Shown piece after piece: positions 13,180 through 39,196 of a stretch of 64,000 bases of DNA (the first letter of the stretch is position 1; each line of letters begins with the position of its first letter). The DNA lies in sequence record NC_052653.1; one strand, given 5' to 3'. Position numbers and translations under genes: made by a program. The notes under the pieces are model-generated. The model was not told the origin of the DNA. It ran no database searches and saw only the letters and a list, made by a program, of their open reading frames with translations. Source of the DNA: Escherichia phage vB_vPM_PD06.

Positions 13180-14913
13180 TTAGTCAACCTGGATGGTTCC
13201 CATAGTACGAAGAACCTCTACATCAACACGGTTGCGGATATCAGTGAATGTTTCATCACGACCTTCTACTTGTGGTGTAATAACCTTACCATTCTTGAAG
13301 ATAACTTGTAACTCATTGTCTTCATCCTGGATATCTTTAAAAGAAAGATTATCTACAAGAGAAAGATTACCATTGGTATCATTAACAACCTTAATAAAAC
13401 CTTTTGCAGAGCGTTTACCAGGATCAGTTTTAGGCTCCTTACTTACCAAAATTTCGTGTTCACCGATGATACTACCTGTTGCTTTAACAGCAAAACCAAA
13501 AGTATCTCGTGTATTGAACTGATAAGTATAACTACCAACACCAAATACAATATTGGAAGCTGCAAAACCTTTCTTCTTCAGTCGGCGTAAGATCTCGTGT
13601 TCTCGTTCAACAGTAATAGAATCACCATAAATCATACCGATATGCTGATCAAGAACCTTGTAGCCTTTTCGGTTGATAGTACCACCAAACACTTCCCAAA
13701 GGATTTGAATAGAACCTACTGCTTCACAATAAGGAATCTCATAAGTTTCATCAATACAGTCAGCAACACTGCAATCCTGAAGAACATTGTAATACTTATT
13801 AACATCAGCCAAATGAACTACTTCAGTGGCTGTCGCAATACCATTATTTAAGAGGTCTTGATAGTTATCAAAAGATTCAACATTGTATCCTGCAACAACT
13901 TTAACCGGATCTCCTGAATCTGGACGAATAACAAGACGACCATTTCGTGACATAATGGAATCTTTCAATTCTACCAGAATGCGAGTCAATACAGCCCAAT
14001 AGTCATAAGAGTCTGCTACATATGAACAAAAACCTTCTGGAACAATTTCTTCGATATAACGACGAAGAAACTCTTTTTCTGCTACATAACGAAGCCCATC
14101 TACATCATCTTTAAGATGTGGGAAATGTTTCTTCAGATCTTCAACAATAGATCCAATGTTAGTCGTTGCTACTGAATGTTCTGTTGCCGGAATCGAACCT
14201 GCAACAAACTGATCATAATCAATACCATAATAGTCATGCACAGTTTCAATAGCCAGAATATTATCTGTTCCTGTGAACGATGCCAAGTGAGCGATACCAC
14301 TCTTATAACCATCTTCGATATTACTTAAACCACGTAGGCTAAAATCATGACACTGGAAGTTAACGTGATCAATATTATCACACGTTGCCATCGCATATGC
14401 CATAGCGATACGCTTATACTGAAAAGCTGCTGTGGCATTAGTCATTGTCTTCCAAGTTTCATCTGACAACAGTGTTTCCACATAGTTAGTTAACCAAAAG
14501 AATTTTTCTAAAGTATTATGCACAGTAAACACAGGAACACCAATAGGACACAAAACACCTTCTGGCAGAGATCGAACTTCCAGCGGAAGATAACCTAAAT
14601 CGTGCAATTCTCCCCAACATTCCGCAGAAGGAGCAGAAGCACCTAACGCATTTTTAGACATACGATAAAATTTATTTACTGCTGCACTACGAGACATTTT
14701 AAAGAAGCTATCCCACATAGTTACAAGAGCATCAGTGACTGCTCGACGAATACCTAAAACAATCACACCACGTGCTTCACGATCTGCATAGTGTGCAAAG
14801 TTTTTATCATTACGAGGAGTTAAATTAGAGAAAATAAGTTTTGTATTTTGGTTGTACATCTGCTTGTGACCAGGTTTGTACCAATCAGTAGCAAAAGGTG
14901 CAAAAATATTCAT
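13180..14913 (-). CDS. nadV: Nicotinamide phosphoribosyltransferase (NAMPT)
   Basis: 577 aa; N-terminal MNIFAPFATDWYKPGHKQMY and overall length typical of NAMPT family. Confidence 0.85.
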   Translation of the reverse strand: MNIFAPFATDWYKPGHKQMYNQNTKLIFSNLTPRNDKNFAHYADREARGVIVLGIRRAVTDALVTMWDSFFKMSRSAAVNKFYRMSKNALGASAPSAECWGELHDLGYLPLEVRSLPEGVLCPIGVPVFTVHNTLEKFFWLTNYVETLLSDETWKTMTNATAAFQYKRIAMAYAMATCDNIDHVNFQCHDFSLRGLSNIEDGYKSGIAHLASFTGTDNILAIETVHDYYGIDYDQFVAGSIPATEHSVATTNIGSIVEDLKKHFPHLKDDVDGLRYVAEKEFLRRYIEEIVPEGFCSYVADSYDYWAVLTRILVELKDSIMSRNGRLVIRPDSGDPVKVVAGYNVESFDNYQDLLNNGIATATEVVHLADVNKYYNVLQDCSVADCIDETYEIPYCEAVGSIQILWEVFGGTINRKGYKVLDQHIGMIYGDSITVEREHEILRRLKKKGFAASNIVFGVGSYTYQFNTRDTFGFAVKATGSIIGEHEILVSKEPKTDPGKRSAKGFIKVVNDTNGNLSLVDNLSFKDIQDEDNELQVIFKNGKVITPQVEGRDETFTDIRNRVDVEVLRTMGTIQVD

Positions 14914-14984
14914 AGTTATGTCTCCTTGTTTGTTAATGTGGGAGTATCTTACTAAGCATACTCCCTATTGTCAACACTTATTAT

Positions 14985-15878
14985 TTAAAAATTCCACACG
15001 TATGGAGATACAATTTGTTGTTGCAAATCTGACTGATTCTTAACAAGAACACCAGAATCTTCTTGGATGTTATCTTCCCACACATTAAGAGAATGAATGC
15101 AGTCAAAGTGCTCACTTAACTCTTTAAGACCTTTAGAAAAGATACCGTGTGTAACATATAGCTCAATCTTACCTGCGTTACGAGCACGTAGCACTTTAGC
15201 CAATTCGATAAAAGTTCTACCACCATCACAGATATCATCTACGATCATCAGGTTACGCTTATTGAAATCCTGTACAGAAATGTCTGTACGAACAATAGCA
15301 CCTGTTGCGGTATCTCTAACCTTCTCTGCACAGAACACATCTAAAGACATTTTCTTAGATAATTTAAATATTTTCTTAAGAGCACCACCATCAGGGCTAA
15401 CAAGAGCAAAATTCTCCATACGTAACTTCCACTTTAAAGTTTCGTAAGCAATCTCTTCTTGAGGCATTACACAGAGTCTGTCAAACACTGCTGGAGTAAC
15501 ATCACTATGCGGATCAGCAACGATAACACGTGAGAAATTTAATGAATTAATTATAGAAGCAAATGCTTTAACTCCGAATGCTTCCCCAGGCTCACACACT
15601 CTGTCTTGTCGTGCATACGGCACATACAACATGAGTAAATCAACACAATATGGTTTATGATATAGCATATTGTCCAATGCATTCTTAGTCATAACCAAAG
15701 TCATCAAGTCTTTAGCAGATCTTACTTCTAAAGTGAGTAAGATTCTGTCTGTAGCATGATTGAAACCTGATAGATTCGTATCTAATTGAACATGTTGTTC
15801 TCCACCAGAGAATGTAAACACTTTAACGTCTACATCAGTAACATAACAGTCAACACCATGCAGAATACTAACTTTCAT
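14985..15878 (-). CDS. prs: Ribose-phosphate pyrophosphokinase (PRPP synthetase)-like
   Basis: YARQDR motif, SPDGG, and PRPP-binding loop MIVDDICDGGRT. Confidence 0.8.
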   Translation of the reverse strand: MKVSILHGVDCYVTDVDVKVFTFSGGEQHVQLDTNLSGFNHATDRILLTLEVRSAKDLMTLVMTKNALDNMLYHKPYCVDLLMLYVPYARQDRVCEPGEAFGVKAFASIINSLNFSRVIVADPHSDVTPAVFDRLCVMPQEEIAYETLKWKLRMENFALVSPDGGALKKIFKLSKKMSLDVFCAEKVRDTATGAIVRTDISVQDFNKRNLMIVDDICDGGRTFIELAKVLRARNAGKIELYVTHGIFSKGLKELSEHFDCIHSLNVWEDNIQEDSGVLVKNQSDLQQQIVSPYVWNF

Positions 15879-18421: not shown

Positions 18422-18781
18422 ATGTGCGCTACTAATCAACATGATATTTGTTACCAACCTCTTACTTGGATTGGTGAGGATCACTATGCTCAACGTGTTA
18501 TAGTCTGCGCTGCGAATAAGTATATTCTCAACAATGGCGAAGAGTTAATTATTCCTTGTGTTAGGCATGCAAATCCTGTACTATCTGCACAACTTAATGT
18601 TTTAAAAGATGCAGGATTGATCGATAAACTGTTTTGCTTACCTGATAATCAAGGGTTTATTGATCAATATTATAATTGGTGGAGTCGCAAAGATGCTTAT
18701 ATCATTGCAGATAACGCCAAACAAATTAACTATGAAAGAAATGGTCACGACAGTGAACTATTCAGCGAGGGATTATACTAA
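18422..18781 (+). CDS. Hypothetical protein
   Basis: ATG at 18422 (MCATNQHD...), about 119 aa. Confidence 0.45.
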   Translation: MCATNQHDICYQPLTWIGEDHYAQRVIVCAANKYILNNGEELIIPCVRHANPVLSAQLNVLKDAGLIDKLFCLPDNQGFIDQYYNWWSRKDAYIIADNAKQINYERNGHDSELFSEGLY

Positions 18782-19332
18782 TGTTTATTACAAGTGATTT
18801 GCATTTTATGCACAAACGTATTCGAGAGTTTGCTCCTGAATATCGCCCGTGGGAAGATATGGAGCATATGACAGAAGCACTGATTGAAGCATGGAATAAA
18901 TGTGCTACGAGTCCTGGTGTCAAGATGTGGCATTTGGGCGACTTCTGTTTCGGGACTGAAGAAGATACCCGTAAAATTGCTTCACGTCTTCAAGGTGATA
19001 TCACTTACTGTGTTGGGAACCATGATTACAGCAAACACCGAGAAGTGCTTGCAGAATATGGCGAGGTGGTGTATTATGACGAAGTGAAATATCAGAAACT
19101 GTTCTTCGTCTTAAGTCATTACCCTATGGCTGCTTGGAATAAACAAGGGCATGGATCAATCATGCTACACGGGCACTCTCACGGATCATTCCCTGATCAT
19201 TTGTATGGGAAAATGTTGGATGTTGGTTGGGATGCACACGGAAAAATCTTGCATTTTGACGAAATCATCTCTATTATGGATAAGCGTGATATTGTTGTTG
19301 TAGACCATCATAAGATAATCAAAGGAGATTAA
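18781..19332 (+). CDS. Calcineurin-like metallophosphoesterase
   Basis: Motifs SDLHFMH, GDFCFG, GNHD, then His-rich HGHSHG. Confidence 0.7.
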   Translation: MFITSDLHFMHKRIREFAPEYRPWEDMEHMTEALIEAWNKCATSPGVKMWHLGDFCFGTEEDTRKIASRLQGDITYCVGNHDYSKHREVLAEYGEVVYYDEVKYQKLFFVLSHYPMAAWNKQGHGSIMLHGHSHGSFPDHLYGKMLDVGWDAHGKILHFDEIISIMDKRDIVVVDHHKIIKGD

Positions 19333-19333
19333 G

Positions 19334-20266
19334 GTGGCTAAGTTCAATTGTGATGACCTGATTGCAAAAGGTTTAGTGCATAAAAAAGAAGTTAAATCTG
19401 GAGAGTATGCTGGTCTTGCTGTACTTAAATACAAAAACAATGTATTCTGGGATAACTTGTGGAACGTTGACAAACGACTCCTAGATTGTCGTGGGTTGGT
19501 TGTTGACTCAGAAGACAATGTTGTTATCTGGCCTTTTACTAAAATCTTTAATCGTTTTGAGAATGGTACAGATCTTCCAGCAGACCAGCTTGTAGATGCT
19601 GTCCGTAAAGTAAACGGTTTTATGGCATCTGTAGGTGTGTACAAAGGGCAACTTATTGTATCAACAACAGGGAGCCTAGAGTCAGATTTTGCAACTCTTG
19701 CCAAGAACCATATTGTTTCCGAGTGTGATGACATAGAATATTTCATTAAGTGGACAGAAAGTGCAAAAGCAACTTTCCTTTTTGAAATCTGTGATCCTTC
19801 TGATCCACATATTGTCGAAGAAGAACCAGGCGCATACTTAATTGGAGCAAGAATTCAAAATCTTGATGGGACAAGTTTCATGCTACCCGAAGGTGTGCTT
19901 GATGGGATTGCATCTATTACAAAATTTAAACGTCCTGAAGTTTATCCGATGATTAAATTTTCAGATGTTGTTGAAATGTCTAAACATTGTAAGCACGAAG
20001 GGTTTGTTGTTCGGGAAACAAACTATCCGTTTAACTTGCTGTTAAAGATTAAGTCACCATATTATCTTGCTAAGAAATTCCTTATGCGTGGTGGCAATAA
20101 GAAGTGGGATATGATTTGGGACAACCCAAAAAATGCTAAACAAATTGTTGACGAAGAATATTATACTTTGCTAGAATGGCTTCGAAACAACTTTACTAAG
20201 ACTCAATGGGCTGCTTTAGATCCACAAGAGCGACGTAAAGAAATAGAAAACTTCTTTGGAGGCTAA
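19334..20266 (+). CDS. Polynucleotide ligase, RNA-ligase-like
   Basis: Nucleotidyltransferase motifs: I VRKVNGF (KxNG), IV HEGFVVRE, V LLKIKSPYY; GTG start with GGAG upstream. Confidence 0.6.
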   Translation: MAKFNCDDLIAKGLVHKKEVKSGEYAGLAVLKYKNNVFWDNLWNVDKRLLDCRGLVVDSEDNVVIWPFTKIFNRFENGTDLPADQLVDAVRKVNGFMASVGVYKGQLIVSTTGSLESDFATLAKNHIVSECDDIEYFIKWTESAKATFLFEICDPSDPHIVEEEPGAYLIGARIQNLDGTSFMLPEGVLDGIASITKFKRPEVYPMIKFSDVVEMSKHCKHEGFVVRETNYPFNLLLKIKSPYYLAKKFLMRGGNKKWDMIWDNPKNAKQIVDEEYYTLLEWLRNNFTKTQWAALDPQERRKEIENFFGG

Positions 20267-20671
20267 ATGAAACAACTTATCATTTTACGTGGTGTTTCAG
20301 GTGCAGGTAAATCTACAGTAGCAGAAATTATTTCTGAAGGTTATTGGCCTATCTGTGAGGCAGATCAATATCATTACACAGAAAGTGGTGTTTACGATTG
20401 GAAGCCAGAGAATGTAGGTAAAGCACACGCATGGTGTCAGAGTATTGTTCGTGATGCTATGGTATCTAATATTAAAAAGATTATTGTCTCTAACACTTCA
20501 ACCACAGAGAAAGAACTTAAACCTTATTTAACTCTTGCTGAAGAGTTTGGTTATCAAGTTATCTCCTTAGTTGTTGAAAATAGGCACGGTAACGACTCAA
20601 TTCATGAGGTTCCACAACATACTCGTGATCAGCAAGAGAAACGTCTTCGCAGTTCACTTAAGCTACAATAA
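20267..20671 (+). CDS. P-loop kinase, polynucleotide-kinase-like
   Basis: Walker A GVSGAGKST near N-terminus; 134 aa; start abuts ligase stop. Confidence 0.6.
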   Translation: MKQLIILRGVSGAGKSTVAEIISEGYWPICEADQYHYTESGVYDWKPENVGKAHAWCQSIVRDAMVSNIKKIIVSNTSTTEKELKPYLTLAEEFGYQVISLVVENRHGNDSIHEVPQHTRDQQEKRLRSSLKLQ

Positions 20672-22537: not shown

Positions 22538-22716
22538 ATGGTATTAGCAACAGTTCTTATGATGTTAATTGCTATTGCAATTATAATGTTAGCCTCGTTT
22601 CCAGTGAACAAATGGTACTGCAATTTTTGTAGATTTGTTGTTTTCCTCTGTGCTGGGGCGTATATGGGCGAATCGGTAGTTCGCATTAGTGTTTTGTTAG
22701 AACAATATTTTAAATA
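22538..22716 (+). CDS. Small membrane protein
   Basis: 59-aa ORF with GAGG upstream; hydrophobic MVLATVLMMLIAIAIIMLASF. Confidence 0.35.
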
Positions 22717-22726
22717 AGGAGAAACA

Positions 22727-23449
22727 ATGATCGAGAATTTTTTCAAACAAGTAAAAGTGGACAATAGCTTCTTTATCAAAGCTGCCGATCAAATTGTTGC
22801 TTGGAATGCTAAGGCACGTGGTGGCGTAACTCCAGAGTTTACTCAAGAGATGTTTGAAGCTCAACTTTCTTTTGTACGAGAAGAACTAAAAGAGTTCCAA
22901 GCAGCAGCACAGGAAAATGATCACGTTGAATTACTTGATGCAGCAGCAGATATTTTTGTGGTAGCATCCTATCTGGCGTTTATGTTCTTTGGTAAAGAAG
23001 GTGTTGATAAAGCTCTGGAAATGCCGACAGGAGATGTTCTGGCAGAAAACATCTACGATGTTATCATTGAATTTGATAAAATGGTAGAAAATGACTTGCA
23101 ATTTGCCCTAATGTCTCTTACACTTACACGTATGGCACGAGATACTTTGGTGCGTTCTGTTTATAACGAGAAGAAGGTTATGCGTGAAGTGTTGAATAGC
23201 AATGAGTCCAAGTATCCTACCAAGAAGCAACTCCTGGCTATTTGGGAAACTAAGGATATTGTTGAAGCTCTTGAAAAAGAGTGTGATGCTATCGAGATGA
23301 GAAGCAAAGATCGTGCAGAAGGTTCTTATACTGGAGTACATGCTGTATATAACGAAGTTCAAAAGGTATACGTATTCTTTGATGACAAAGGTAAAATTAT
23401 GAAGCCATCTACCTTTGTTAAACCTAATATCGCAGCAATCATTGCTTAA
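22727..23449 (+). CDS. MazG-like all-alpha NTP pyrophosphohydrolase (tentative)
   Basis: Acidic helix pattern EELKEFQAAAQENDHVELLDAAADIF. Confidence 0.4.
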   Translation: MIENFFKQVKVDNSFFIKAADQIVAWNAKARGGVTPEFTQEMFEAQLSFVREELKEFQAAAQENDHVELLDAAADIFVVASYLAFMFFGKEGVDKALEMPTGDVLAENIYDVIIEFDKMVENDLQFALMSLTLTRMARDTLVRSVYNEKKVMREVLNSNESKYPTKKQLLAIWETKDIVEALEKECDAIEMRSKDRAEGSYTGVHAVYNEVQKVYVFFDDKGKIMKPSTFVKPNIAAIIA

Positions 23450-23455
23450 GAAATA

Positions 23456-23478
23456 AAGCCCCTTCGGGGGCTTATTGG
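23456..23478 (+). terminator. Rho-independent terminator (weak U-tract)
   Basis: AAGCCCC-TTCG-GGGGCTT hairpin right after stop. Confidence 0.5.
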
Positions 23479-28260: not shown

Positions 28261-28824
28261 ATGGCTAAACTTTATTTCCGATATAGTCCGATGAACAGTG
28301 GTAAAAGCACACATCTTCTACAAACAGCTTGGAACTATAAAGAAAGAAATATGAAAGTTCTTCTTTTAACTTCAGCTTTAGATACCAGATCTGGTGGTGC
28401 TATTGCTTCTAGGATAGGTATTAAAGAGGAAGCAAAACCAGTTAAAACAAAAGAAGATATGCTGGAAATTTATACACAACTTAAAGAGAATCCAGTAGAT
28501 GCAGTATTTGTGGATGAATCACAATTCCTAACTAAAGATATGGTTGACATTCTTGGAGATGTGGTAGACAATTACGATATTCCTGTATTCTGCTATGGAC
28601 TTAAAACAGATTTTGCTACAGAATTGTTTGAAGGTTCTGAACGGTTATTAGCCATAGCAGATTCAATTACAGAATTGAAAAGCATTTGTAAATGTGGAAG
28701 AAAAGCTATTTTCAATGCTAGACTTATCGACTCTAAAGAACAGATTGTTATTGGAGGAGAAGACATTTACGAAACAATGTGTAGAAAATGTTATAACAGG
28801 AGAAATAATGCGTCTAGTATGTGA
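28261..28824 (+). CDS. tdk: Thymidine kinase
   Basis: P-loop YSPMNSGKSTHLLQTA, VFVDESQFL, C-terminal zinc site CKCGRKA ... CRKCY. Confidence 0.9.
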   Translation: MAKLYFRYSPMNSGKSTHLLQTAWNYKERNMKVLLLTSALDTRSGGAIASRIGIKEEAKPVKTKEDMLEIYTQLKENPVDAVFVDESQFLTKDMVDILGDVVDNYDIPVFCYGLKTDFATELFEGSERLLAIADSITELKSICKCGRKAIFNARLIDSKEQIVIGGEDIYETMCRKCYNRRNNASSM

Positions 28825-29398
28825 TTGGGATTTAGTAATAGCTCCAGCGGATATAGAATGGTTAAATTGGTTAAATGCGGTAAGTAGATCTAATATCAAA
28901 TTTGATAAGACACATAAAACTGTGCACTATGATATTACGAAATATTTCCCTGATTTTAAAAAGCAATTTGGTGTAGATCCTTACTCTTTTTGGGATAACC
29001 AACATCTATATGATACTATGGGAGTAGTACCTAATAGTACAGATGTTGTTCATCGTATAATTGCAAATGGATCTAATATATCTATAGCGAGCCACACTAA
29101 AGGTGGACACCTTAGTTCTAAATATAGACACGTAACACGATCTTTAGATAAAGTGGATTTTAGTAGAACATCTGGTAATGGTTTTTTCGCAACAAAAGAA
29201 AAATACTTATTACCTTGCGATGTAACTATTGACGATAGGGCTGAAAATCTTGTCCTGTTTCCAGATGAAACGTTGAAAATATATTTCAACACTATTTACG
29301 AAGATCCATATTTGGAAGAGTTAAAGAAACTTCCTAATGTAATTATCACTGGTTTAGACAATCAGTGGGAAGAAATTGAAAGTATTTTACTACCTTAA
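28808..29398 (+). CDS. HAD-like phosphatase, possible deoxyribonucleotidase
   Basis: ATG at 28808 with AGGAG upstream; N-terminal DxD-type motif VCDWDLVI; sits between tdk and thyX. Confidence 0.4.
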   Translation: MRLVCDWDLVIAPADIEWLNWLNAVSRSNIKFDKTHKTVHYDITKYFPDFKKQFGVDPYSFWDNQHLYDTMGVVPNSTDVVHRIIANGSNISIASHTKGGHLSSKYRHVTRSLDKVDFSRTSGNGFFATKEKYLLPCDVTIDDRAENLVLFPDETLKIYFNTIYEDPYLEELKKLPNVIITGLDNQWEEIESILLP

Positions 29399-29407
29399 GG
29401 AGAAATA

Positions 29408-30379
29408 ATGACAAATTCTATTTCAGCAAAAATTATTGCACACTCTCAAACATCCGAAGGTAAGGATATTGTTACCTTTGAACTTGAATATCCTCGAATC
29501 ATTCACTCTGAATTGATGACGCATCGTTTGTTTTCTCGTAATGCAGCATCAAGTCGAGCTATCCCTGTTAAAACTCTAATTGAAATGGTACGGCAATCTC
29601 CAGCACGTCCTTATCGTTTTGGTGCTAACCAACCAGGTATGCAAGATAAAGGCACAGATCACGATGCCCTGATTGATGCAGGTTACACTGCAAAAGAATG
29701 GTGGGACTTGGCTGCTCTAAGTGCTGCACGTTTTGCAGAAGAGTTTGCCCTTGCTGGTTATCATAAACAGGTTGCAAACCGCCTACTAGAACCATTTCAG
29801 CGTATGAAGACTGTAGTAACCACTACAGAACTAGAAAACTTCTTGTGGTTGCGCGTAGATGCTGATGCAGATCCTACTATTGAGGCTCTTGCTAAAGAAA
29901 TTAAAAAACTGTATGAATCTTCTGAACCATATCTTCTTTTCCCAGGAGAATGGCATACACCTTACGTTAATCGTGATCGAGATCCAGAAACTGGTATGAT
30001 CCGTTATTTCTTGGGTGAAACCTTCTCCAACGAGAAAATGTTGACAGAAGACGAAGCAAAAGCTATTTCAGCTTCTTGTTGCGCTCAGGTAAGTTATCGT
30101 AAGTTGAATGATACTAAAGATAAAGCATTGGATATCTATTCTCGTTTGCTGTCTGGACAAAAGGTACATGCATCTCCGTTTGAACACCAGGCAACGCCAA
30201 TGAAAGAAATGGATTTGTCAGGATTAAAACAACAGAAAGGTGGTATTAATATTCCTCCGTTCCCTTCCTCTTGGGAAGAAGGTATTACACACATGGATCG
30301 TAAACATCGTTTGTGGAGTGGAAACTTCTGTGGTTGGATTCAACATCGTCAACTTTTGACAAACCATACAAAATGGTGA
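29408..30379 (+). CDS. thyX: Flavin-dependent thymidylate synthase ThyX
   Basis: ThyX signature RHRLFSRNAASSRA; 323 aa. Confidence 0.9.
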   Translation: MTNSISAKIIAHSQTSEGKDIVTFELEYPRIIHSELMTHRLFSRNAASSRAIPVKTLIEMVRQSPARPYRFGANQPGMQDKGTDHDALIDAGYTAKEWWDLAALSAARFAEEFALAGYHKQVANRLLEPFQRMKTVVTTTELENFLWLRVDADADPTIEALAKEIKKLYESSEPYLLFPGEWHTPYVNRDRDPETGMIRYFLGETFSNEKMLTEDEAKAISASCCAQVSYRKLNDTKDKALDIYSRLLSGQKVHASPFEHQATPMKEMDLSGLKQQKGGINIPPFPSSWEEGITHMDRKHRLWSGNFCGWIQHRQLLTNHTKW

Positions 30380-35740: not shown

Positions 35741-35938
35741 ATGATGCTAGATCAACTGATCAATGCTCCTCGCGTAACAGTAAGTCCAAAAACATTTGCA
35801 TCACTTTTAGAAGATGCTAGAGAGGTTTATAACTTTACTGAAGAAGAGCTTCCTGTTCCTGTTGAAAAAGGTTCCAGATGGTTGTTTTATGAAGGTATTA
35901 TTTTTACTGAAGGGAATAATTGGAAGGAGACTAAATGA
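35741..35938 (+). CDS. Hypothetical protein
   Basis: ATG at 35741 with GGAGGA upstream; 65 aa. Confidence 0.4.
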   Translation: MMLDQLINAPRVTVSPKTFASLLEDAREVYNFTEEELPVPVEKGSRWLFYEGIIFTEGNNWKETK

Positions 35939-36924
35939 AATACTTAGTAACAGGTGGTTTAGGCTTTATTGGAAGTGCGGTAGTTCGTTTCCTAGCTAAA
36001 AATACTAAGAATGATATTTACGTTATAGATAAATGGGGTTACGCTTCAGACCCTAGAAATTTATCAGAAACACCTAATGTAAAGTTTTGTCGTGTTGACT
36101 TGACAAATGCTCAGTTAACTGCTAAGATTGTGGCAGATGTTAACCCAGATTATATAATGCATCTTGCAGCAGAAAGTCACGTAGATAATTCAATAGCATC
36201 ACCGAGTGTTTTTATAAATTCAAATATTGTTGGAACATTTAATCTTCTAGAAGCTGTTCGTTTAATGGGAGATAAATCAAATCTTAAAATGTTTCATCAT
36301 ATTTCAACAGATGAAGTGTATGGTGATATGGAAGAAGGGGATTATCCGTTTACAGAACAGAATCCTTATAAACCAAGTAGTCCATATGCTGCATCTAAAG
36401 CTGCAAGCGATCATTTGGTAAGAGCGTGGCATCGTACTTATGGTATTCCGACAGTTATAACAAATTGTTCAAATAATTTTGGAGCGTATCATCATCCAGA
36501 AAAACTAATACCTAAAACGATAACAAATATCTTGATGCATAAACCAATCCCTGTTTATGGCAATGGTCTTCAAGTAAGAGACTGGCTATACGTTGACGAT
36601 CACGCAGAAGCATTACACCTAGTAGTAACTAAAGGCAAATCTGGAGAAACATATAATATTGGGAGCAGAAACCCTAGAACTAATATTGATGTAATCTATA
36701 TGATTTGTGATTATATGGATGCGGTATATCCATCTGAAACAGATGCTTGTAGCCTCATTGAGATGGTTACAGATAGGCCTGGGCATGATCTAAGATATGA
36801 AGTGAATCCTTATAAGATTGAAAAGGAATTAGGGTGGAAAGCTAAAGGCACATTTGAAGAAAAACTTTATTCAACCATTGATTGGTATGTAGATAACAAA
36901 GAGTGGTGGGAAAATAAAGTTTAA
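35935..36924 (+). CDS. rmlB: dTDP-glucose 4,6-dehydratase
   Basis: N-terminal TGGLGFIGS Rossmann motif, catalytic YAASK, STDEVYG. Confidence 0.85.
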
Positions 36925-36932
36925 GGAGGAGT

Positions 36933-37802
36933 ATGAAAGGTATTATCTTAGCAGGTGGTAGTGGAACAAGACTTTACCCAGTTACTAAAGGGGTTAGTAA
37001 ACAACTATTACCAATTTATGATAAGCCTATGATTTATTATCCACTCTCTGTCCTAATGCTTTCTGGAATTAGGGAAATACTAATAATTACAACACCAGAA
37101 GATCAAATTAATTTTGTAAATCTTCTAGGTGATGGTTCTTCTTTTGGTATTTCCCTACAGTATGCAATACAGGATAGTCCAAGAGGTTTAGCAGAAGCGT
37201 TTATTATTGGTGAGAACTTTATTGGTGAAGATTCTGTAGCACTTGTGCTAGGTGATAATTTATTCTTTGGTCAGAGTTTTGGTAGCATTTTAGATTCTGC
37301 TAAAGAACATATTGAAAAGAATGGTGGAGCTAATATTTTTGGGTATCACGTAAATGATCCTGAAAGATTTGGTGTTGTTGAGTTTGATTCTGAAGGTACA
37401 GTGGTAAGTATTGAAGAAAAACCAAAAGCACCAAAAAGCAACTATGCAATTACAGGCTTGTACTTTTACGATAATTCTGTTATACAGAAAGCTAAAAGCG
37501 TTAAGCCTTCTGCTAGAGGGGAGTTAGAGATTACAGATATAAATGAGATGTACTGGAAAGAAAAGGCTTTACGTGTCTGTAAGCTAGGAAGAGGTTTCAC
37601 TTGGCTGGATACAGGAACACATGAAAGTCTTATGGAAGCATCTCAATTTGTTCATGCAATAGAAAAGCAACAAGGTATGAAGGTTGCATGCCTAGAAGAG
37701 ATTGCTTTTAAAAATGAATGGATTACTTTAGATTCTGTAAAAAGTTCTGGAGAGGTTTTAAGTAAAACAGACTACGGCAAGTATTTACTTAAATTAAAAT
37801 AA
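36933..37802 (+). CDS. rmlA: Glucose-1-phosphate thymidylyltransferase
   Basis: N-terminal [16 protein letters not shown] and [18 protein letters not shown]. Confidence 0.9.
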
Positions 37803-37814
37803 GGGGGAGATTAA

Positions 37815-38369
37815 ATGATTCAAGCAACAAAAATCGAAGATTTGTTGATCATTCAACCTGACGTTTACGGGGATGAACGTGGTTTTTTCTTAGAAAGTTT
37901 TAATCAGGCTTTATATGATCAATACATAGGTAAACAAAACTTTGTCCAAGATAACCATTCACGTTCTATTCGAGGAGTTCTACGTGGGCTTCATTTTCAA
38001 AAGAAAAACCCACAAGGGAAGTTAGTACGTTGTGTTCGTGGTGAAGTTTATGATGTTGCTGTAGATATTAGGGTTGGTAGTCCAACATTTGGAGAATGGG
38101 TAGGTGTTCTTTTATCTGAAAAGAATAAAACACAATTTTGGATTCCTCCTGGTTTCGCTCATGGCTTTGTTGTGATTAGCGACATTGCTGATTTTGAATA
38201 TAAATGTACAGAATATTACGATCCGACTTCAGAGTGTAGTCTTGCGTGGAATGATCCAGATATCAATATAGATTGGGGTTTTGATTTAATCTTTAATGAT
38301 ATTAATTTTAAACCTATCTTGTCACAAAAAGATCAGGAAGCCAAAACACTAAAGGAGATCATATTTTGA
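37815..38369 (+). CDS. rmlC: dTDP-4-dehydrorhamnose 3,5-epimerase
   Basis: DERGFFLESF, RGLHFQ, WIPPGFAHGF cupin motifs; 184 aa. Confidence 0.85.
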   Translation: MIQATKIEDLLIIQPDVYGDERGFFLESFNQALYDQYIGKQNFVQDNHSRSIRGVLRGLHFQKKNPQGKLVRCVRGEVYDVAVDIRVGSPTFGEWVGVLLSEKNKTQFWIPPGFAHGFVVISDIADFEYKCTEYYDPTSECSLAWNDPDINIDWGFDLIFNDINFKPILSQKDQEAKTLKEIIF

Positions 38370-39196
38370 CAAAATTTTTAATCTTTGGTTCAAAAGGTCA
38401 ATTAGGACAATCTTTGGCAAAAGTTGCACCAGAAGATGTTATTTTGATTGAAGCAAGTGATATAGACATTACCAACTTTAAAGATGTTATGAATAGTCTT
38501 GTACAGCACGTGCCTGATGTTGTTGTGAATTGTGCGGCTTACACGGCAGTAGATAAAGCTGAAGAAGATGTTAACACCTGTATAAATGTTAATGCATACG
38601 GTGCAACAAACATTGCCAAAGCATGTAATGATTTACTGATACAGTTTGTACATATTTCAACAGACTATGTTTTTGATGGACATGTTGCTGGCACAGAAGA
38701 GAGTAAAACAAACCCCTTGAACACCTACGGTTACAGTAAACAATTAGGTGAAACTTTAGTACAAGCAGTTTGTCCTACAGCACTTATTATCAGAACAGCT
38801 TCTGTTTATAGTGAATTTGGACATAACTTTTTGAAAACTATGTTGGAACGCTACAACGGTGGTCAAAAAGAATTTAATGTAGTATGTGATCATTTATCAT
38901 GTCCTACTTATGCACCTGATCTTGCAGAAACAATTTTTAAACTTGTAAAAGATGGTGTAAATAGTAAAATTGTACACTATGCAGGTGCAGATTATATTTC
39001 TTGGTATGATTTTGCACGTAAGATATTTCTTGTTATAGATTTGTCTGTTACAGTTAATCCTGTATCTGCTTCAACCTATAATTCTAAAGCAGTCAGACCA
39101 GCAACATCTTATTTAAAAACAGATCCTACTTTAAATCCGCGAAGTGTTGATAGCGGTATTGTAAGAACTTTAACTATACTTTTAAACAAGGAGTGA
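38366..39196 (+). CDS. rmlD: dTDP-4-dehydrorhamnose reductase
   Basis: N-terminal LIFGSKGQLGQ, NCAAYTAVDKAE, STDYVFDG; TTG start overlapping rmlC stop. Confidence 0.8.
   Translation: MTKFLIFGSKGQLGQSLAKVAPEDVILIEASDIDITNFKDVMNSLVQHVPDVVVNCAAYTAVDKAEEDVNTCINVNAYGATNIAKACNDLLIQFVHISTDYVFDGHVAGTEESKTNPLNTYGYSKQLGETLVQAVCPTALIIRTASVYSEFGHNFLKTMLERYNGGQKEFNVVCDHLSCPTYAPDLAETIFKLVKDGVNSKIVHYAGADYISWYDFARKIFLVIDLSVTVNPVSASTYNSKAVRPATSYLKTDPTLNPRSVDSGIVRTLTILLNKE

What the first reader, a model, noticed from the sequence alone, without database searches (positions are those of the whole stretch)
22727..23449. Possible MazG-like nucleotide pyrophosphohydrolase
The acidic helical segment EELKEFQAAAQENDHVELLDAAADIF fits the metal-binding pattern of all-alpha NTP pyrophosphatases. 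Phage MazG homologs are proposed to clear alarmone or non-canonical nucleotides, but the call is tentative.
Basis: inference. Interest (0 to 1): 0.35.

Follow-up and report, generated by a model that had tools for sequence, protein, structure and literature searches.

The report
Phage DR2231-like nucleotide pyrophosphatase, probable dUTPase

Summary
The ORF at 22727-23449 (+, 240 aa) exists exactly as described. It lies in a phAPEC8/PHB05-type E. coli myovirus.

- **Superfamily.** Profile searches confirm an all-alpha NTP pyrophosphohydrolase: Pfam PRA-PH scores 31.1 bits against a cut-off of 21.3, and PHROG 671 matches at 6e-28.
- **Branch.** The protein is not an E. coli-type MazG, not HisE, and not the phage anti-defence enzyme Atd1. 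It belongs to the DR2231-like branch, marked by SNxSK and a C-terminal GKxxKP lysine hairpin. Natural 120-140 aa viral short forms link it to Deinococcus DR2231. The window protein is that core plus two insertions.
- **Function.** DR2231 is a dUTP-specific enzyme. Three phage lineages carrying this family encode ThyX and ribonucleotide reductase but have no detectable dUTPase or dCMP deaminase. The best reading is dUTP -> dUMP + PPi. This is inferred, not shown.
- **Novelty.** The gene is already annotated "nucleotide pyrophosphohydrolase" in several genomes, so this is a new member of a known kind with modest interest.

The parts
22716..22721 (+). Shine-Dalgarno AAGGAG, 5 nt upstream of the ATG. 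It overlaps the stop codon (22715-22717) of the small upstream ORF.
   Evidence: Read directly from the sequence.
22727..23449 (+). CDS, 240 aa: DR2231-like all-alpha nucleoside triphosphate pyrophosphohydrolase (long form).
22763..22813 (+). N-terminal helix (aa 13-29) carrying W26 and N27, conserved in at least 90% of members. Inferred to be part of the base pocket. The aromatic position is also kept in the short forms and in DR2231 (Phe).
   Evidence: The role is inferred.
22880..22894 (+). EExxE motif (E52, E53, E56), proposed Mg2+ ligands. It aligns with the DEESAE segment of DR2231 and the EExxE of HisE and MazG.
22928..22951 (+). Second acidic motif E68-x2-D71-x3-D75. D75 is invariant and aligns with the Asp of the canonical ExxD. 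The canonical Glu position is Ala72, and D71 one residue earlier is the conserved acid instead.
22985..23167 (+). Insertion 1 (about aa 87-147, helices 109-119 and 123-143). It is absent from the short forms and from DR2231. Its position matches the variable 'motif VI' region of staphylococcal phage dimeric dUTPases.
   Evidence: The comparison with motif VI uses PMC5608427.
23198..23218 (+). SNxSKYP motif (S158, N159, K162, P164). N159 and K162 are invariant. It aligns with ANLSK of DR2231 and resembles motif V of dimeric dUTPases, where an Asn anchors the deoxyribose and a basic residue at +3 binds phosphate.
   Evidence: PMC5608427. Roles are inferred.
23219..23371 (+). Insertion 2 (about aa 165-215: helices 166-173 and 178-192, strand 205-209). 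It is absent from the short forms and from DR2231.
23390..23425 (+). C-terminal hairpin signature GKIMKPSTFVKP (K223 and K226 invariant, P227 in 65/66). It aligns with GKQLKPEGWRP of DR2231. Inferred to be a phosphate-binding lid.
   Evidence: The role is inferred.
23456..23473 (.). GC-rich hairpin AAGCCCC-TTCG-GGGGCTT just after the stop codon. It has no T-tract on the + strand.
29408..30379 (+). Context, not part of the gene: flavin-dependent thymidylate synthase ThyX, the proposed consumer of the dUMP product.
   Evidence: Pfam Thy1 37 bits against a cut-off of 24.8. The pathway link is inferred.

Best explanation
The gene encodes a catalytically competent, Mg2+-dependent nucleoside triphosphate pyrophosphohydrolase of the DR2231-like branch of the all-alpha (MazG/HisE/dimeric dUTPase) superfamily. 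In the proposed mechanism, the acidic cluster E52/E53/E56 plus E68/D71/D75 on a helical hairpin holds the metal ions that activate water for attack at the alpha-beta phosphoanhydride. N159 holds the sugar. K162 and the two invariant lysines of the C-terminal hairpin (K223, K226) hold the beta and gamma phosphates. W26, N27 and Q46 line the base pocket. The products are a nucleoside monophosphate and pyrophosphate. The most likely physiological substrate is dUTP. Hydrolysing it keeps uracil out of phage DNA and supplies dUMP to the phage ThyX, in a genome that also carries thymidine kinase, ribonucleotide reductases and a dTTP-consuming dTDP-rhamnose pathway. What is shown: the gene, superfamily membership, the conserved motifs, the two-insertion architecture, the homology chain to DR2231, and the absence of any other dUTPase. 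What is inferred: the residue roles, catalysis itself and the substrate.
For: - Superfamily: Pfam PRA-PH is above cut-off. PHROG 671 'nucleotide pyrophosphohydrolase' matches at 6e-28. Of 66 diverse relatives, 48 hit PRA-PH and 10 hit MazG. PDB profile hits are HisE and MazG.
- Conserved catalytic set: E53, D75, N159, K162, K223 and K226 are invariant in 66 diverse members.
- Structure: the model is confident and helical (pLDDT 92.6). The best PDB fold match is a phage dimeric dUTPase, 5mil_B.
- DR2231 link: long form versus natural short forms gives hhalign probability 99.7%, E=3e-26. The short-form profile versus DR2231 2yeu_A gives E=1.4e-14 over residues 20-146, and versus 3nl9 gives 1.4e-12. 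A single short form versus DR2231 gives 5e-6.
- DR2231 activity: it is reported to act on dUTP (titles and citing text seen).
- Genomic logic: PHB05, FV3 and Barba19A each carry the family plus ThyX and RNR. None has a trimeric dUTPase, dimeric dUTPase or deaminase motif. The Dut query was verified against the real gene.
- Neighbourhoods elsewhere: ThyX, RNR, glutaredoxin, dNMP kinase, DNA ligase and DNA polymerase.
- Window context: TK, an NT5C-like protein, ThyX, NrdAB and RmlBACD lie downstream on the same strand.
Against: - The direct match of the long form to DR2231 is weak: hhalign probability 24.6% and E about 0.1-0.2 with the insertion-excised core. The branch assignment therefore rests on a two-step chain.
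- The short forms were collected with a pattern for the C-terminal motif, so they share that motif by construction.
- DR2231 is not among the 50 Foldseek PDB hits listed, and the dimeric dUTPase match is weak (E 0.69).
- The canonical Glu of ExxD is Ala72 in this protein.
- By an alignment made by eye, the His-Phe couple that gives dimeric dUTPases their dU specificity is replaced by V78-V79.
- Two insertions could reshape the base pocket, and substrate specificity varies widely within this superfamily.
- PcCB7V, a related phage without this family, also lacks any dUTPase, and the host has its own Dut, so the gene is not strictly needed as a dUTPase.
- I could not read the primary DR2231 papers.
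Confidence: 0.55

Rival explanations
1. The protein is an NTP pyrophosphohydrolase with another specificity. It could be a broad house-cleaning enzyme for damaged or non-canonical dNTPs (dITP, 8-oxo-dGTP, 5-OH-dCTP). Alternatively it could trim canonical dNTPs, for example dCTP or dGTP, as reported for a cyanophage MazG.
For: - The same superfamily evidence applies.
- Specificity in this superfamily is diverse: the cyanophage MazG paper title, M. tuberculosis MazG, and the dCTPase/dITPase activity of some phage dimeric Duts.
- The dU-specifying His-Phe couple is absent.
- The insertions and Ala72 distinguish it from DR2231.
Against: - The closest characterised relative is reported as exclusive for dUTP (reference list).
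- The association with ThyX and RNR, together with the lack of any dUTPase in three lineages, fits dUTP better than damaged nucleotides.
Confidence: 0.27
2. The protein is an anti-defence or host-takeover enzyme. It would destroy a signalling nucleotide, such as (p)ppGpp or an immune messenger, as phage Atd1 and E. coli MazG do.
For: - Atd1, a phage MazG-like protein, hydrolyses ppGpp and protects against TIR effectors.
- In rV5-like and Mydovirus genomes the gene lies beside or near a Sir2-like gene.
- NAD-salvage genes lie nearby in the window.
Against: - Atd1's source phage has no member of this family. Only an 86-aa minimal protein there matches, at E=0.012 and over the EExxE hairpin alone.
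- The family's recurrent neighbours are replication and dNTP-synthesis genes.
- The invariant Asn-x-x-Lys resembles the deoxyribose/phosphate motif of dUTPases.
- A cyanophage MazG was reported unable to hydrolyse magic spot nucleotides (title).
Confidence: 0.1
3. The protein has a mainly non-catalytic role, acting as a nucleotide-binding regulator or protein-interaction module. Staphylococcal phage dUTPases moonlight in this way as derepressors through their variable region.
For: - Insertion 1 sits at the position of the variable 'motif VI' of staphylococcal dimeric Duts, which mediates binding of the Stl repressor.
- The canonical ExxD Glu is missing.
Against: Six residues with predicted catalytic or ligand-binding roles are invariant across a family averaging 22% column identity. 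That pattern is expected for an active enzyme.
Confidence: 0.05

Closest known systems
DR2231 of Deinococcus radiodurans (PDB 2YEU, 2YF3, 2YFC, 2YFD and the 5HVA series), a MazG-like NTP pyrophosphohydrolase active on dUTP. Its uncharacterised structural-genomics relative is 3NL9.
   Same: - EExxE motif and the Asp of the second acidic motif.
- The helix ending in (S/A)NxSK, followed by the C-terminal GKxxKP hairpin.
- These two structures are the only PDB entries whose alignments run through that hairpin.
- Homology is established through natural short viral forms.
   Different: - The window protein is 240 aa, against 154 in the DR2231 PDB chain 2yeu_A, because of two insertions of about 60 and 50 residues.
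- The Glu of ELAD is Ala72, with Asp71 conserved one position earlier.
- N27 and Q46 are specific to the long form.
- The family appears restricted to viruses.
- Direct sequence similarity is marginal, and the activity is untested.
Dimeric dUTPases (Pfam dUTPase_2; Campylobacter and trypanosomatid enzymes; staphylococcal phage phiDI, phiNM1 and phiO11 Duts, PDB 5MIL/5MYD)
   Same: - All-helical fold, and the best PDB fold hit (5mil_B).
- The same order of elements: a first helix with polar or aromatic residues, an ExxE helix, an ExxD helix, a variable insertion, then a helix with Asn-x-x-(Lys/Arg).
   Different: - No sequence-level relation: hhalign probability 2.6% and 4.6%.
- No Pfam dUTPase_2 hit in 66 members.
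- No His-Phe couple.
- Dimeric Duts lack the beta hairpin with GKxxKP.
HisE / PRA-PH (phosphoribosyl-ATP pyrophosphatase) and E. coli-type MazG
   Same: The metal-binding helical hairpin. This is what the Pfam PRA-PH hit and the PDB hits 1yvw and 3cra detect.
   Different: - The matches cover only the helices.
- The NCBIfam HisE equivalog scores 14.1 against a cut-off of 42.7.
- There is no histidine-biosynthesis context, no tandem MazG domains, and the window protein itself has no Pfam MazG hit.
Atd1, the phage PcCB7V MazG-like ppGpp hydrolase (bioRxiv 10.1101/2022.06.09.495361)
   Same: A phage-encoded member of the same superfamily, from a related subfamily of phages (Vequintavirinae).
   Different: It most probably corresponds to an 86-aa minimal protein (QQG33500.1) two genes from the NTase. 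It matches our profile only at E=0.012 over the EExxE hairpin. PcCB7V lacks the 240-aa family.

Membership tests
All-alpha NTP pyrophosphohydrolase superfamily (MazG/HisE/dimeric dUTPase) | Significant match to a curated profile of the clan | tested here: met
   Pfam PRA-PH 31.1 bits against a cut-off of 21.3. Of 66 relatives, 48 hit PRA-PH and 10 hit MazG. PDB profile hits are HisE at 0.0038 and MazG at 0.0042.
All-alpha NTP pyrophosphohydrolase superfamily (MazG/HisE/dimeric dUTPase) | EExxE ... ExxD acidic metal-binding motifs on a helical hairpin | tested here: met
   E52, E53, E56 and D75 are conserved and lie on helices 40-62 and 66-98. One variation: the Glu of ExxD is Ala72, with D71 and E68 as the conserved acids.
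All-alpha NTP pyrophosphohydrolase superfamily (MazG/HisE/dimeric dUTPase) | All-helical core fold | tested here: met
   The AF2 model has pLDDT 92.6 and eight helices before the C-terminal hairpin. Foldseek PDB matches are weak, with 5mil_B on top at E 0.69.
All-alpha NTP pyrophosphohydrolase superfamily (MazG/HisE/dimeric dUTPase) | Metal-dependent cleavage of NTP to NMP + PPi | not testable with these tools
   Needs an enzyme assay.
DR2231-like branch | (S/A)NxSK helix end followed by a C-terminal GKxxKP hairpin | tested here: met
   S158, N159, K162, K223, K226 and P227 are invariant or nearly so. They align with ANLSK...GKQLKP of DR2231.
DR2231-like branch | Significant sequence similarity to DR2231 | tested here: inconclusive
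   The direct comparison is weak: hhalign probability 24.6% and E 0.11-0.27 with the excised core. The transitive link is strong: long form to short form E=3e-26, short form to DR2231 E=1.4e-14.
DR2231-like branch | Compact single module of about 125-170 aa | tested here: not met
   The protein is 240 aa, with two insertions (about aa 87-147 and 165-215).
DR2231-like branch | Specific dUTPase activity | not testable with these tools
   Only indirect support: no other dUTPase in three genomes that carry ThyX.
Dimeric dUTPase (Pfam dUTPase_2) | Profile or sequence similarity to dimeric Duts | tested here: not met
   No dUTPase_2 hit. hhalign against the phiNM1 Dut gives probability 2.6% and 4.6%.
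Dimeric dUTPase (Pfam dUTPase_2) | His-Phe couple after ExxD (deoxyribose sandwich and uracil specificity) | tested here: not met
   The positions after D75 are I-F-V78-V79. The correspondence was made by eye from the description in PMC5608427. Staphylococcal phage Duts also lack the His.
Dimeric dUTPase (Pfam dUTPase_2) | Motif V Asn anchoring the deoxyribose, with a basic residue at +3 | tested here: met
   N159 and K162 are invariant. Compare N158 and R161 of the phiDI Dut.
HisE (phosphoribosyl-ATP diphosphatase) | NCBIfam equivalog score and histidine-pathway context | tested here: not met
   TIGR03188 scores 14.1 bits against a cut-off of 42.7. The neighbours are replication and dNTP genes.
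Atd1-type phage ppGpp hydrolase | Orthology to the PcCB7V protein | tested here: not met
   PcCB7V has no family member. Its 86-aa MazG-like protein matches only at E=0.012.

The most novel reading that the evidence does not exclude
A virus-restricted, insertion-expanded DR2231-type enzyme is the 'missing' dUTPase of ThyX-encoding rV5-, phAPEC8- and Barbavirus-like phages. It would be a third structural solution to dUTP control in phages, alongside trimeric and dimeric Duts. Its variable insertion would play the role of motif VI of staphylococcal Duts, as a regulatory or protein-interaction surface.
Probability: 0.3. Interest if true: 0.45.

Novelty: new member of a known kind. Interest (0 to 1): 0.27.

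Why it matters
If the dUTPase reading holds, it explains how a large group of therapeutic-candidate E. coli and Klebsiella myoviruses, along with many marine phages, supply dUMP to ThyX and keep uracil out of their DNA without a canonical Dut. It would also allow hundreds of 'hypothetical protein' or generic 'nucleotide pyrophosphohydrolase' annotations to be replaced by a specific, testable one. The series of short, single-insertion and double-insertion forms shows how a minimal MazG-like module is elaborated towards a dimeric-dUTPase-like architecture. Otherwise this is an ordinary auxiliary nucleotide-metabolism gene.

Tried and rejected
- **E. coli-type MazG or HisE orthology: rejected.** Only the helical hairpin matches, the NCBIfam HisE score is far below its cut-off, and there are no tandem domains.
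- **Orthology with Atd1: rejected.** I fetched the whole PcCB7V genome and it has no family member.
- **Membership of the dimeric dUTPase family: rejected at sequence level.** I confirmed phiNM1 gp31 as a dimeric Dut, and hhalign against it was negative.
- **C-terminal third as a separately fused domain: rejected.** A hit to residues 152-237 only (H55) suggested this. The same record holds a fragmented full-length copy (H59), and the family is full-length almost everywhere.
- **The search for related loci with A2** failed because the alignment was too diverse. I replaced it with a degenerate DNA pattern.
- **Cellular homologs:** all 6 genome hits were chance matches that fail the family HMM.
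- **Direct profile match of the long form to DR2231** was only marginal.
- **The primary DR2231 papers** are not held in the library.
- **Literature search for 'DR2231-like' in phages** found nothing.
- **Longer fused members** (P0106, P0110, P0190) have C-terminal extensions with no Pfam match.

Full report
**1. The observation**

The window has an ORF from ATG 22727 to the stop at 23447-23449 on the + strand, encoding 240 aa. AAGGAG lies at 22716-22721, and a GC-rich UUCG hairpin lies at 23456-23473. The region is 99% identical to Escherichia phages ECGD1 and PHB05 (Stephanstirmvirinae, Justusliebigvirus). The protein is identical or nearly identical in dozens of phage genomes, and 338 phage records hold a homolog. 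Several of those records already name it 'nucleotide pyrophosphohydrolase'.

**2. Superfamily**

- Pfam PRA-PH matches residues 38-93 at 31.1 bits, against a gathering score of 21.3.
- PHROG 671 'nucleotide pyrophosphohydrolase' matches residues 10-239 at 6.4e-28.
- An exhaustive profile search of 1.84 billion representatives finds 1,246 clusters at E<=1e-3. Nearly all are 200-260 aa and match over the full length.
- In an alignment of 66 diverse members with mean column identity 22%, the invariant residues are E53, D75, N159, K162, K223 and K226. Residues conserved in at least 90% are W26, N27, Q46, E52, E56, V78, V155, S158 and P227.
- Of those 66 members, 48 hit Pfam PRA-PH and 10 hit MazG. 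None hits dUTPase_2.
- The family profile finds HisE (0.0038) and E. coli MazG (0.0042) among PDB sequences, and 7 of 9 hits are all-alpha NTP pyrophosphatases. D75 aligns with the Asp of their ExxD motif.
- AlphaFold2 gives a confident model (pLDDT 92.6, pTM 0.89). It has eight helices followed by a small beta hairpin.

**3. Which branch**

Foldseek against the PDB is weak. It puts a staphylococcal phage dimeric dUTPase (5mil_B, E 0.69, TM 0.55 on the target) on top. Against viral models it finds a full-length family of 200-290 aa phage proteins.

A degenerate DNA pattern for the signature G-K-I-M-K-P-x-T-F gave 58 viral contigs. The family HMM hit 52 of these at E<=1e-3, and 50 at E<1e-8. 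The same pattern gave 6 hits in 596 Gb of cellular genomes, all of which fail the HMM. With this signature, the family appears restricted to viruses.

About 30 of the viral hits are short proteins of 120-140 aa. They consist only of the EExxE helix, the Asp-motif helix, a helix ending in SNxSKF, and about ten residues later the GKIMKPxTFxEP hairpin. These short forms are clear PRA-PH members, with scores up to 52 bits. They also match Deinococcus radiodurans DR2231: 5e-6 for a single sequence, and 1.4e-14 for a nine-sequence profile over residues 20-146 of 2yeu_A. They match 3NL9 at 1.4e-12 and HisE only at 2.7e-6.

Long form and short form align with hhalign probability 99.7%, E=3e-26. That alignment skips two blocks of the long form, about aa 87-147 and 165-215. 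Natural intermediates exist: a 193-aa form with only insertion 1 and a 179-aa form with only insertion 2.

The direct link from long form to DR2231 is marginal. hhalign gives probability 24.6%. With the insertions excised in silico from long-form sequences alone, DR2231 scores E 0.11-0.27 and 3NL9 scores 0.09. Even so, these two are the only PDB entries whose alignments extend through the C-terminal hairpin.

I conclude that the window protein is a two-insertion variant of the DR2231-like branch. Superfamily membership is firm. The branch assignment is well supported but transitive.

**4. What it is not**

- **Not HisE.** The NCBIfam equivalog scores 14.1 against 42.7, and there is no histidine-pathway context.
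- **Not a sequence-level dimeric dUTPase.** I confirmed phiNM1 gp31 as one (6.8e-75 to 5mil), and hhalign against it gives probability 2.6% and 4.6%.
- **Not Atd1.** The ppGpp-hydrolysing, anti-TIR MazG-like protein of phage PcCB7V (bioRxiv 10.1101/2022.06.09.495361) most probably corresponds to the 86-aa QQG33500.1, two genes from the NTase. The whole PcCB7V genome has no member of the 240-aa family. That 86-aa protein matches only at E=0.012 over the EExxE hairpin.

**5. Function**

DR2231 is described as a MazG-like enzyme that cleaves dUTP (Goncalves et al. 2011). [quoted passage not shown] 2016). I saw these only as citations, because the papers themselves are not held.

In the phiDI dimeric Dut, the motif V Asn anchors the deoxyribose and a basic residue three positions later binds phosphate (PMC5608427). 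The invariant N159 and K162 fit that pattern. In the C. jejuni dUTPase, basic residues bind the phosphates (PMC10014863). By analogy, K162, K223 and K226 are the candidates here.

Genomic logic:
- The window's thymidylate synthase is ThyX (Thy1, 37 bits).
- On the same strand, the gene is followed by RdgC, a FEN-type exonuclease, a DnaQ-like exonuclease, thymidine kinase, an NT5C-like protein, ThyX, NrdA, NrdB and a complete dTDP-rhamnose pathway, RmlB, A, C and D. dTTP demand is therefore high.
- Six-frame searches covered the complete genomes of PHB05, the rV5-like FV3 and the Barbavirus Barba19A. Each carries the family, ThyX and RNR. None has a trimeric dUTPase, a dimeric dUTPase or a dCMP-deaminase zinc motif. 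The Dut query is identical to E. coli b3640.
- Elsewhere the gene sits next to ThyX, RNR, glutaredoxin, dNMP kinase, DNA ligase or DNA polymerase.

Caveats:
- PcCB7V lacks both the family and any Dut.
- The host supplies Dut.
- The canonical ExxD Glu is Ala72.
- The His-Phe couple of dimeric Duts is V78-V79.
- The insertions may alter the base pocket.

I put about 0.85 on 'active NTP pyrophosphohydrolase', about 0.45 on dUTP as the main substrate, and 0.55 on the combined statement as worded.

**6. Novelty and verdict**

The call is correct and already present in database annotation. No characterised member of the long form exists, and I found no literature on it. The refinements are:
- placement in the DR2231-like branch;
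- the two-insertion architecture with natural intermediates;
- restriction to viruses;
- a probable dUTPase role in ThyX phages that lack Dut.

These are useful but unsurprising. The gene is a new member of a known kind, and its interest is low to moderate.

Noticed in passing
window 22538-22717 (+): A 59-aa hydrophobic ORF (MVLATVLMMLIAIAIIMLASFPVNKWYC...) with its own AAGAGG ribosome-binding site. Its stop codon overlaps the SD of the pyrophosphatase gene. It is unannotated in RefSeq PHB05 but intact in 112 phage records down to 64% identity, so it is probably a real small membrane protein gene, possibly translationally coupled.
   Followed up: partly
window 23456-23473: A GC-rich UUCG-loop hairpin immediately after the stop codon. 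It has no T-tract on the + strand. The scan flags it as terminator-like only on the - strand, where no gene is nearby.
   Followed up: no
window 28261-30379 (+): Thymidine kinase (28261-28824), then a protein weakly similar to NT5C deoxyribonucleotidase (28808-29398; 23.4 bits, just under the cut-off of 24.8), then the thymidylate synthase (29408-30379). The synthase is the flavin-dependent ThyX type, although RefSeq PHB05 calls it only 'putative thymidylate synthase'.
   Followed up: partly
window 35935-39196 (+): A complete dTDP-L-rhamnose pathway (RmlB, RmlA, RmlC, RmlD; Pfam E-values 1e-72 to 1e-82) directly downstream of NrdA and NrdB. The closely related PHB05 also has four glycosyltransferases next to its primase/helicase. 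The target of the rhamnose is unknown.
   Followed up: partly
window 13180-15878 (-): A NAPRTase/NAMPT-family protein (577 aa) and a PRPP synthetase, forming an NAD-salvage pair. The same pair occurs in the unrelated-looking Barba19A and in PcCB7V. PHB05 also encodes a Sir2-like protein.
   Followed up: no
window 18781-20671 (+): A trio that looks like RNA repair: a calcineurin-like phosphoesterase, an RNA ligase and an AAA_33 kinase. It is conserved next to the DNA ligase and pyrophosphatase module in rV5-like and Mydovirus genomes.
   Followed up: no
GenBank MG065645, MG065656, MG065689 and about 20 others: Records named 'Campylobacter phage', with host C. jejuni, are 98.6% identical over 7 kb to E. 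coli Stephanstirmvirinae or carry rV5-like copies of the gene. The host labels look doubtful.
   Followed up: no
L071:9478-10068 and L051:4093-4629 (IMG/VR contigs): Natural intermediates of the family: a 193-aa form with insertion 1 only, abutting ThyX and the RNR large subunit, and a 179-aa form with insertion 2 only, 619 nt from a ThyX.
   Followed up: partly
L016:6001-6624 (136-kb metagenomic phage contig): A 207-aa family member sits between sugar-nucleotide enzymes (UDP-glucose dehydrogenase, an epimerase, a TAGT-family protein) and DNA polymerase B, UvsX and DnaB. This phage may modify its DNA with sugars.
   Followed up: no
P0040 (345 aa, on a 1.7-kb contig) and MG969411.1 (H55, H59): P0040 joins cupin/mannose-6-phosphate-isomerase Pfam domains to a 94%-identical half of this protein. 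In Salmonella phage GE_vB_MG the gene is split into four pieces at two places. Both look like assembly artefacts and not real fusions.
   Followed up: no
P0106, P0190, P0110 (333-374 aa): Some family members carry C-terminal extensions of about 110-160 aa with no Pfam match. P0106 lies next to ThyX and RNR.
   Followed up: partly
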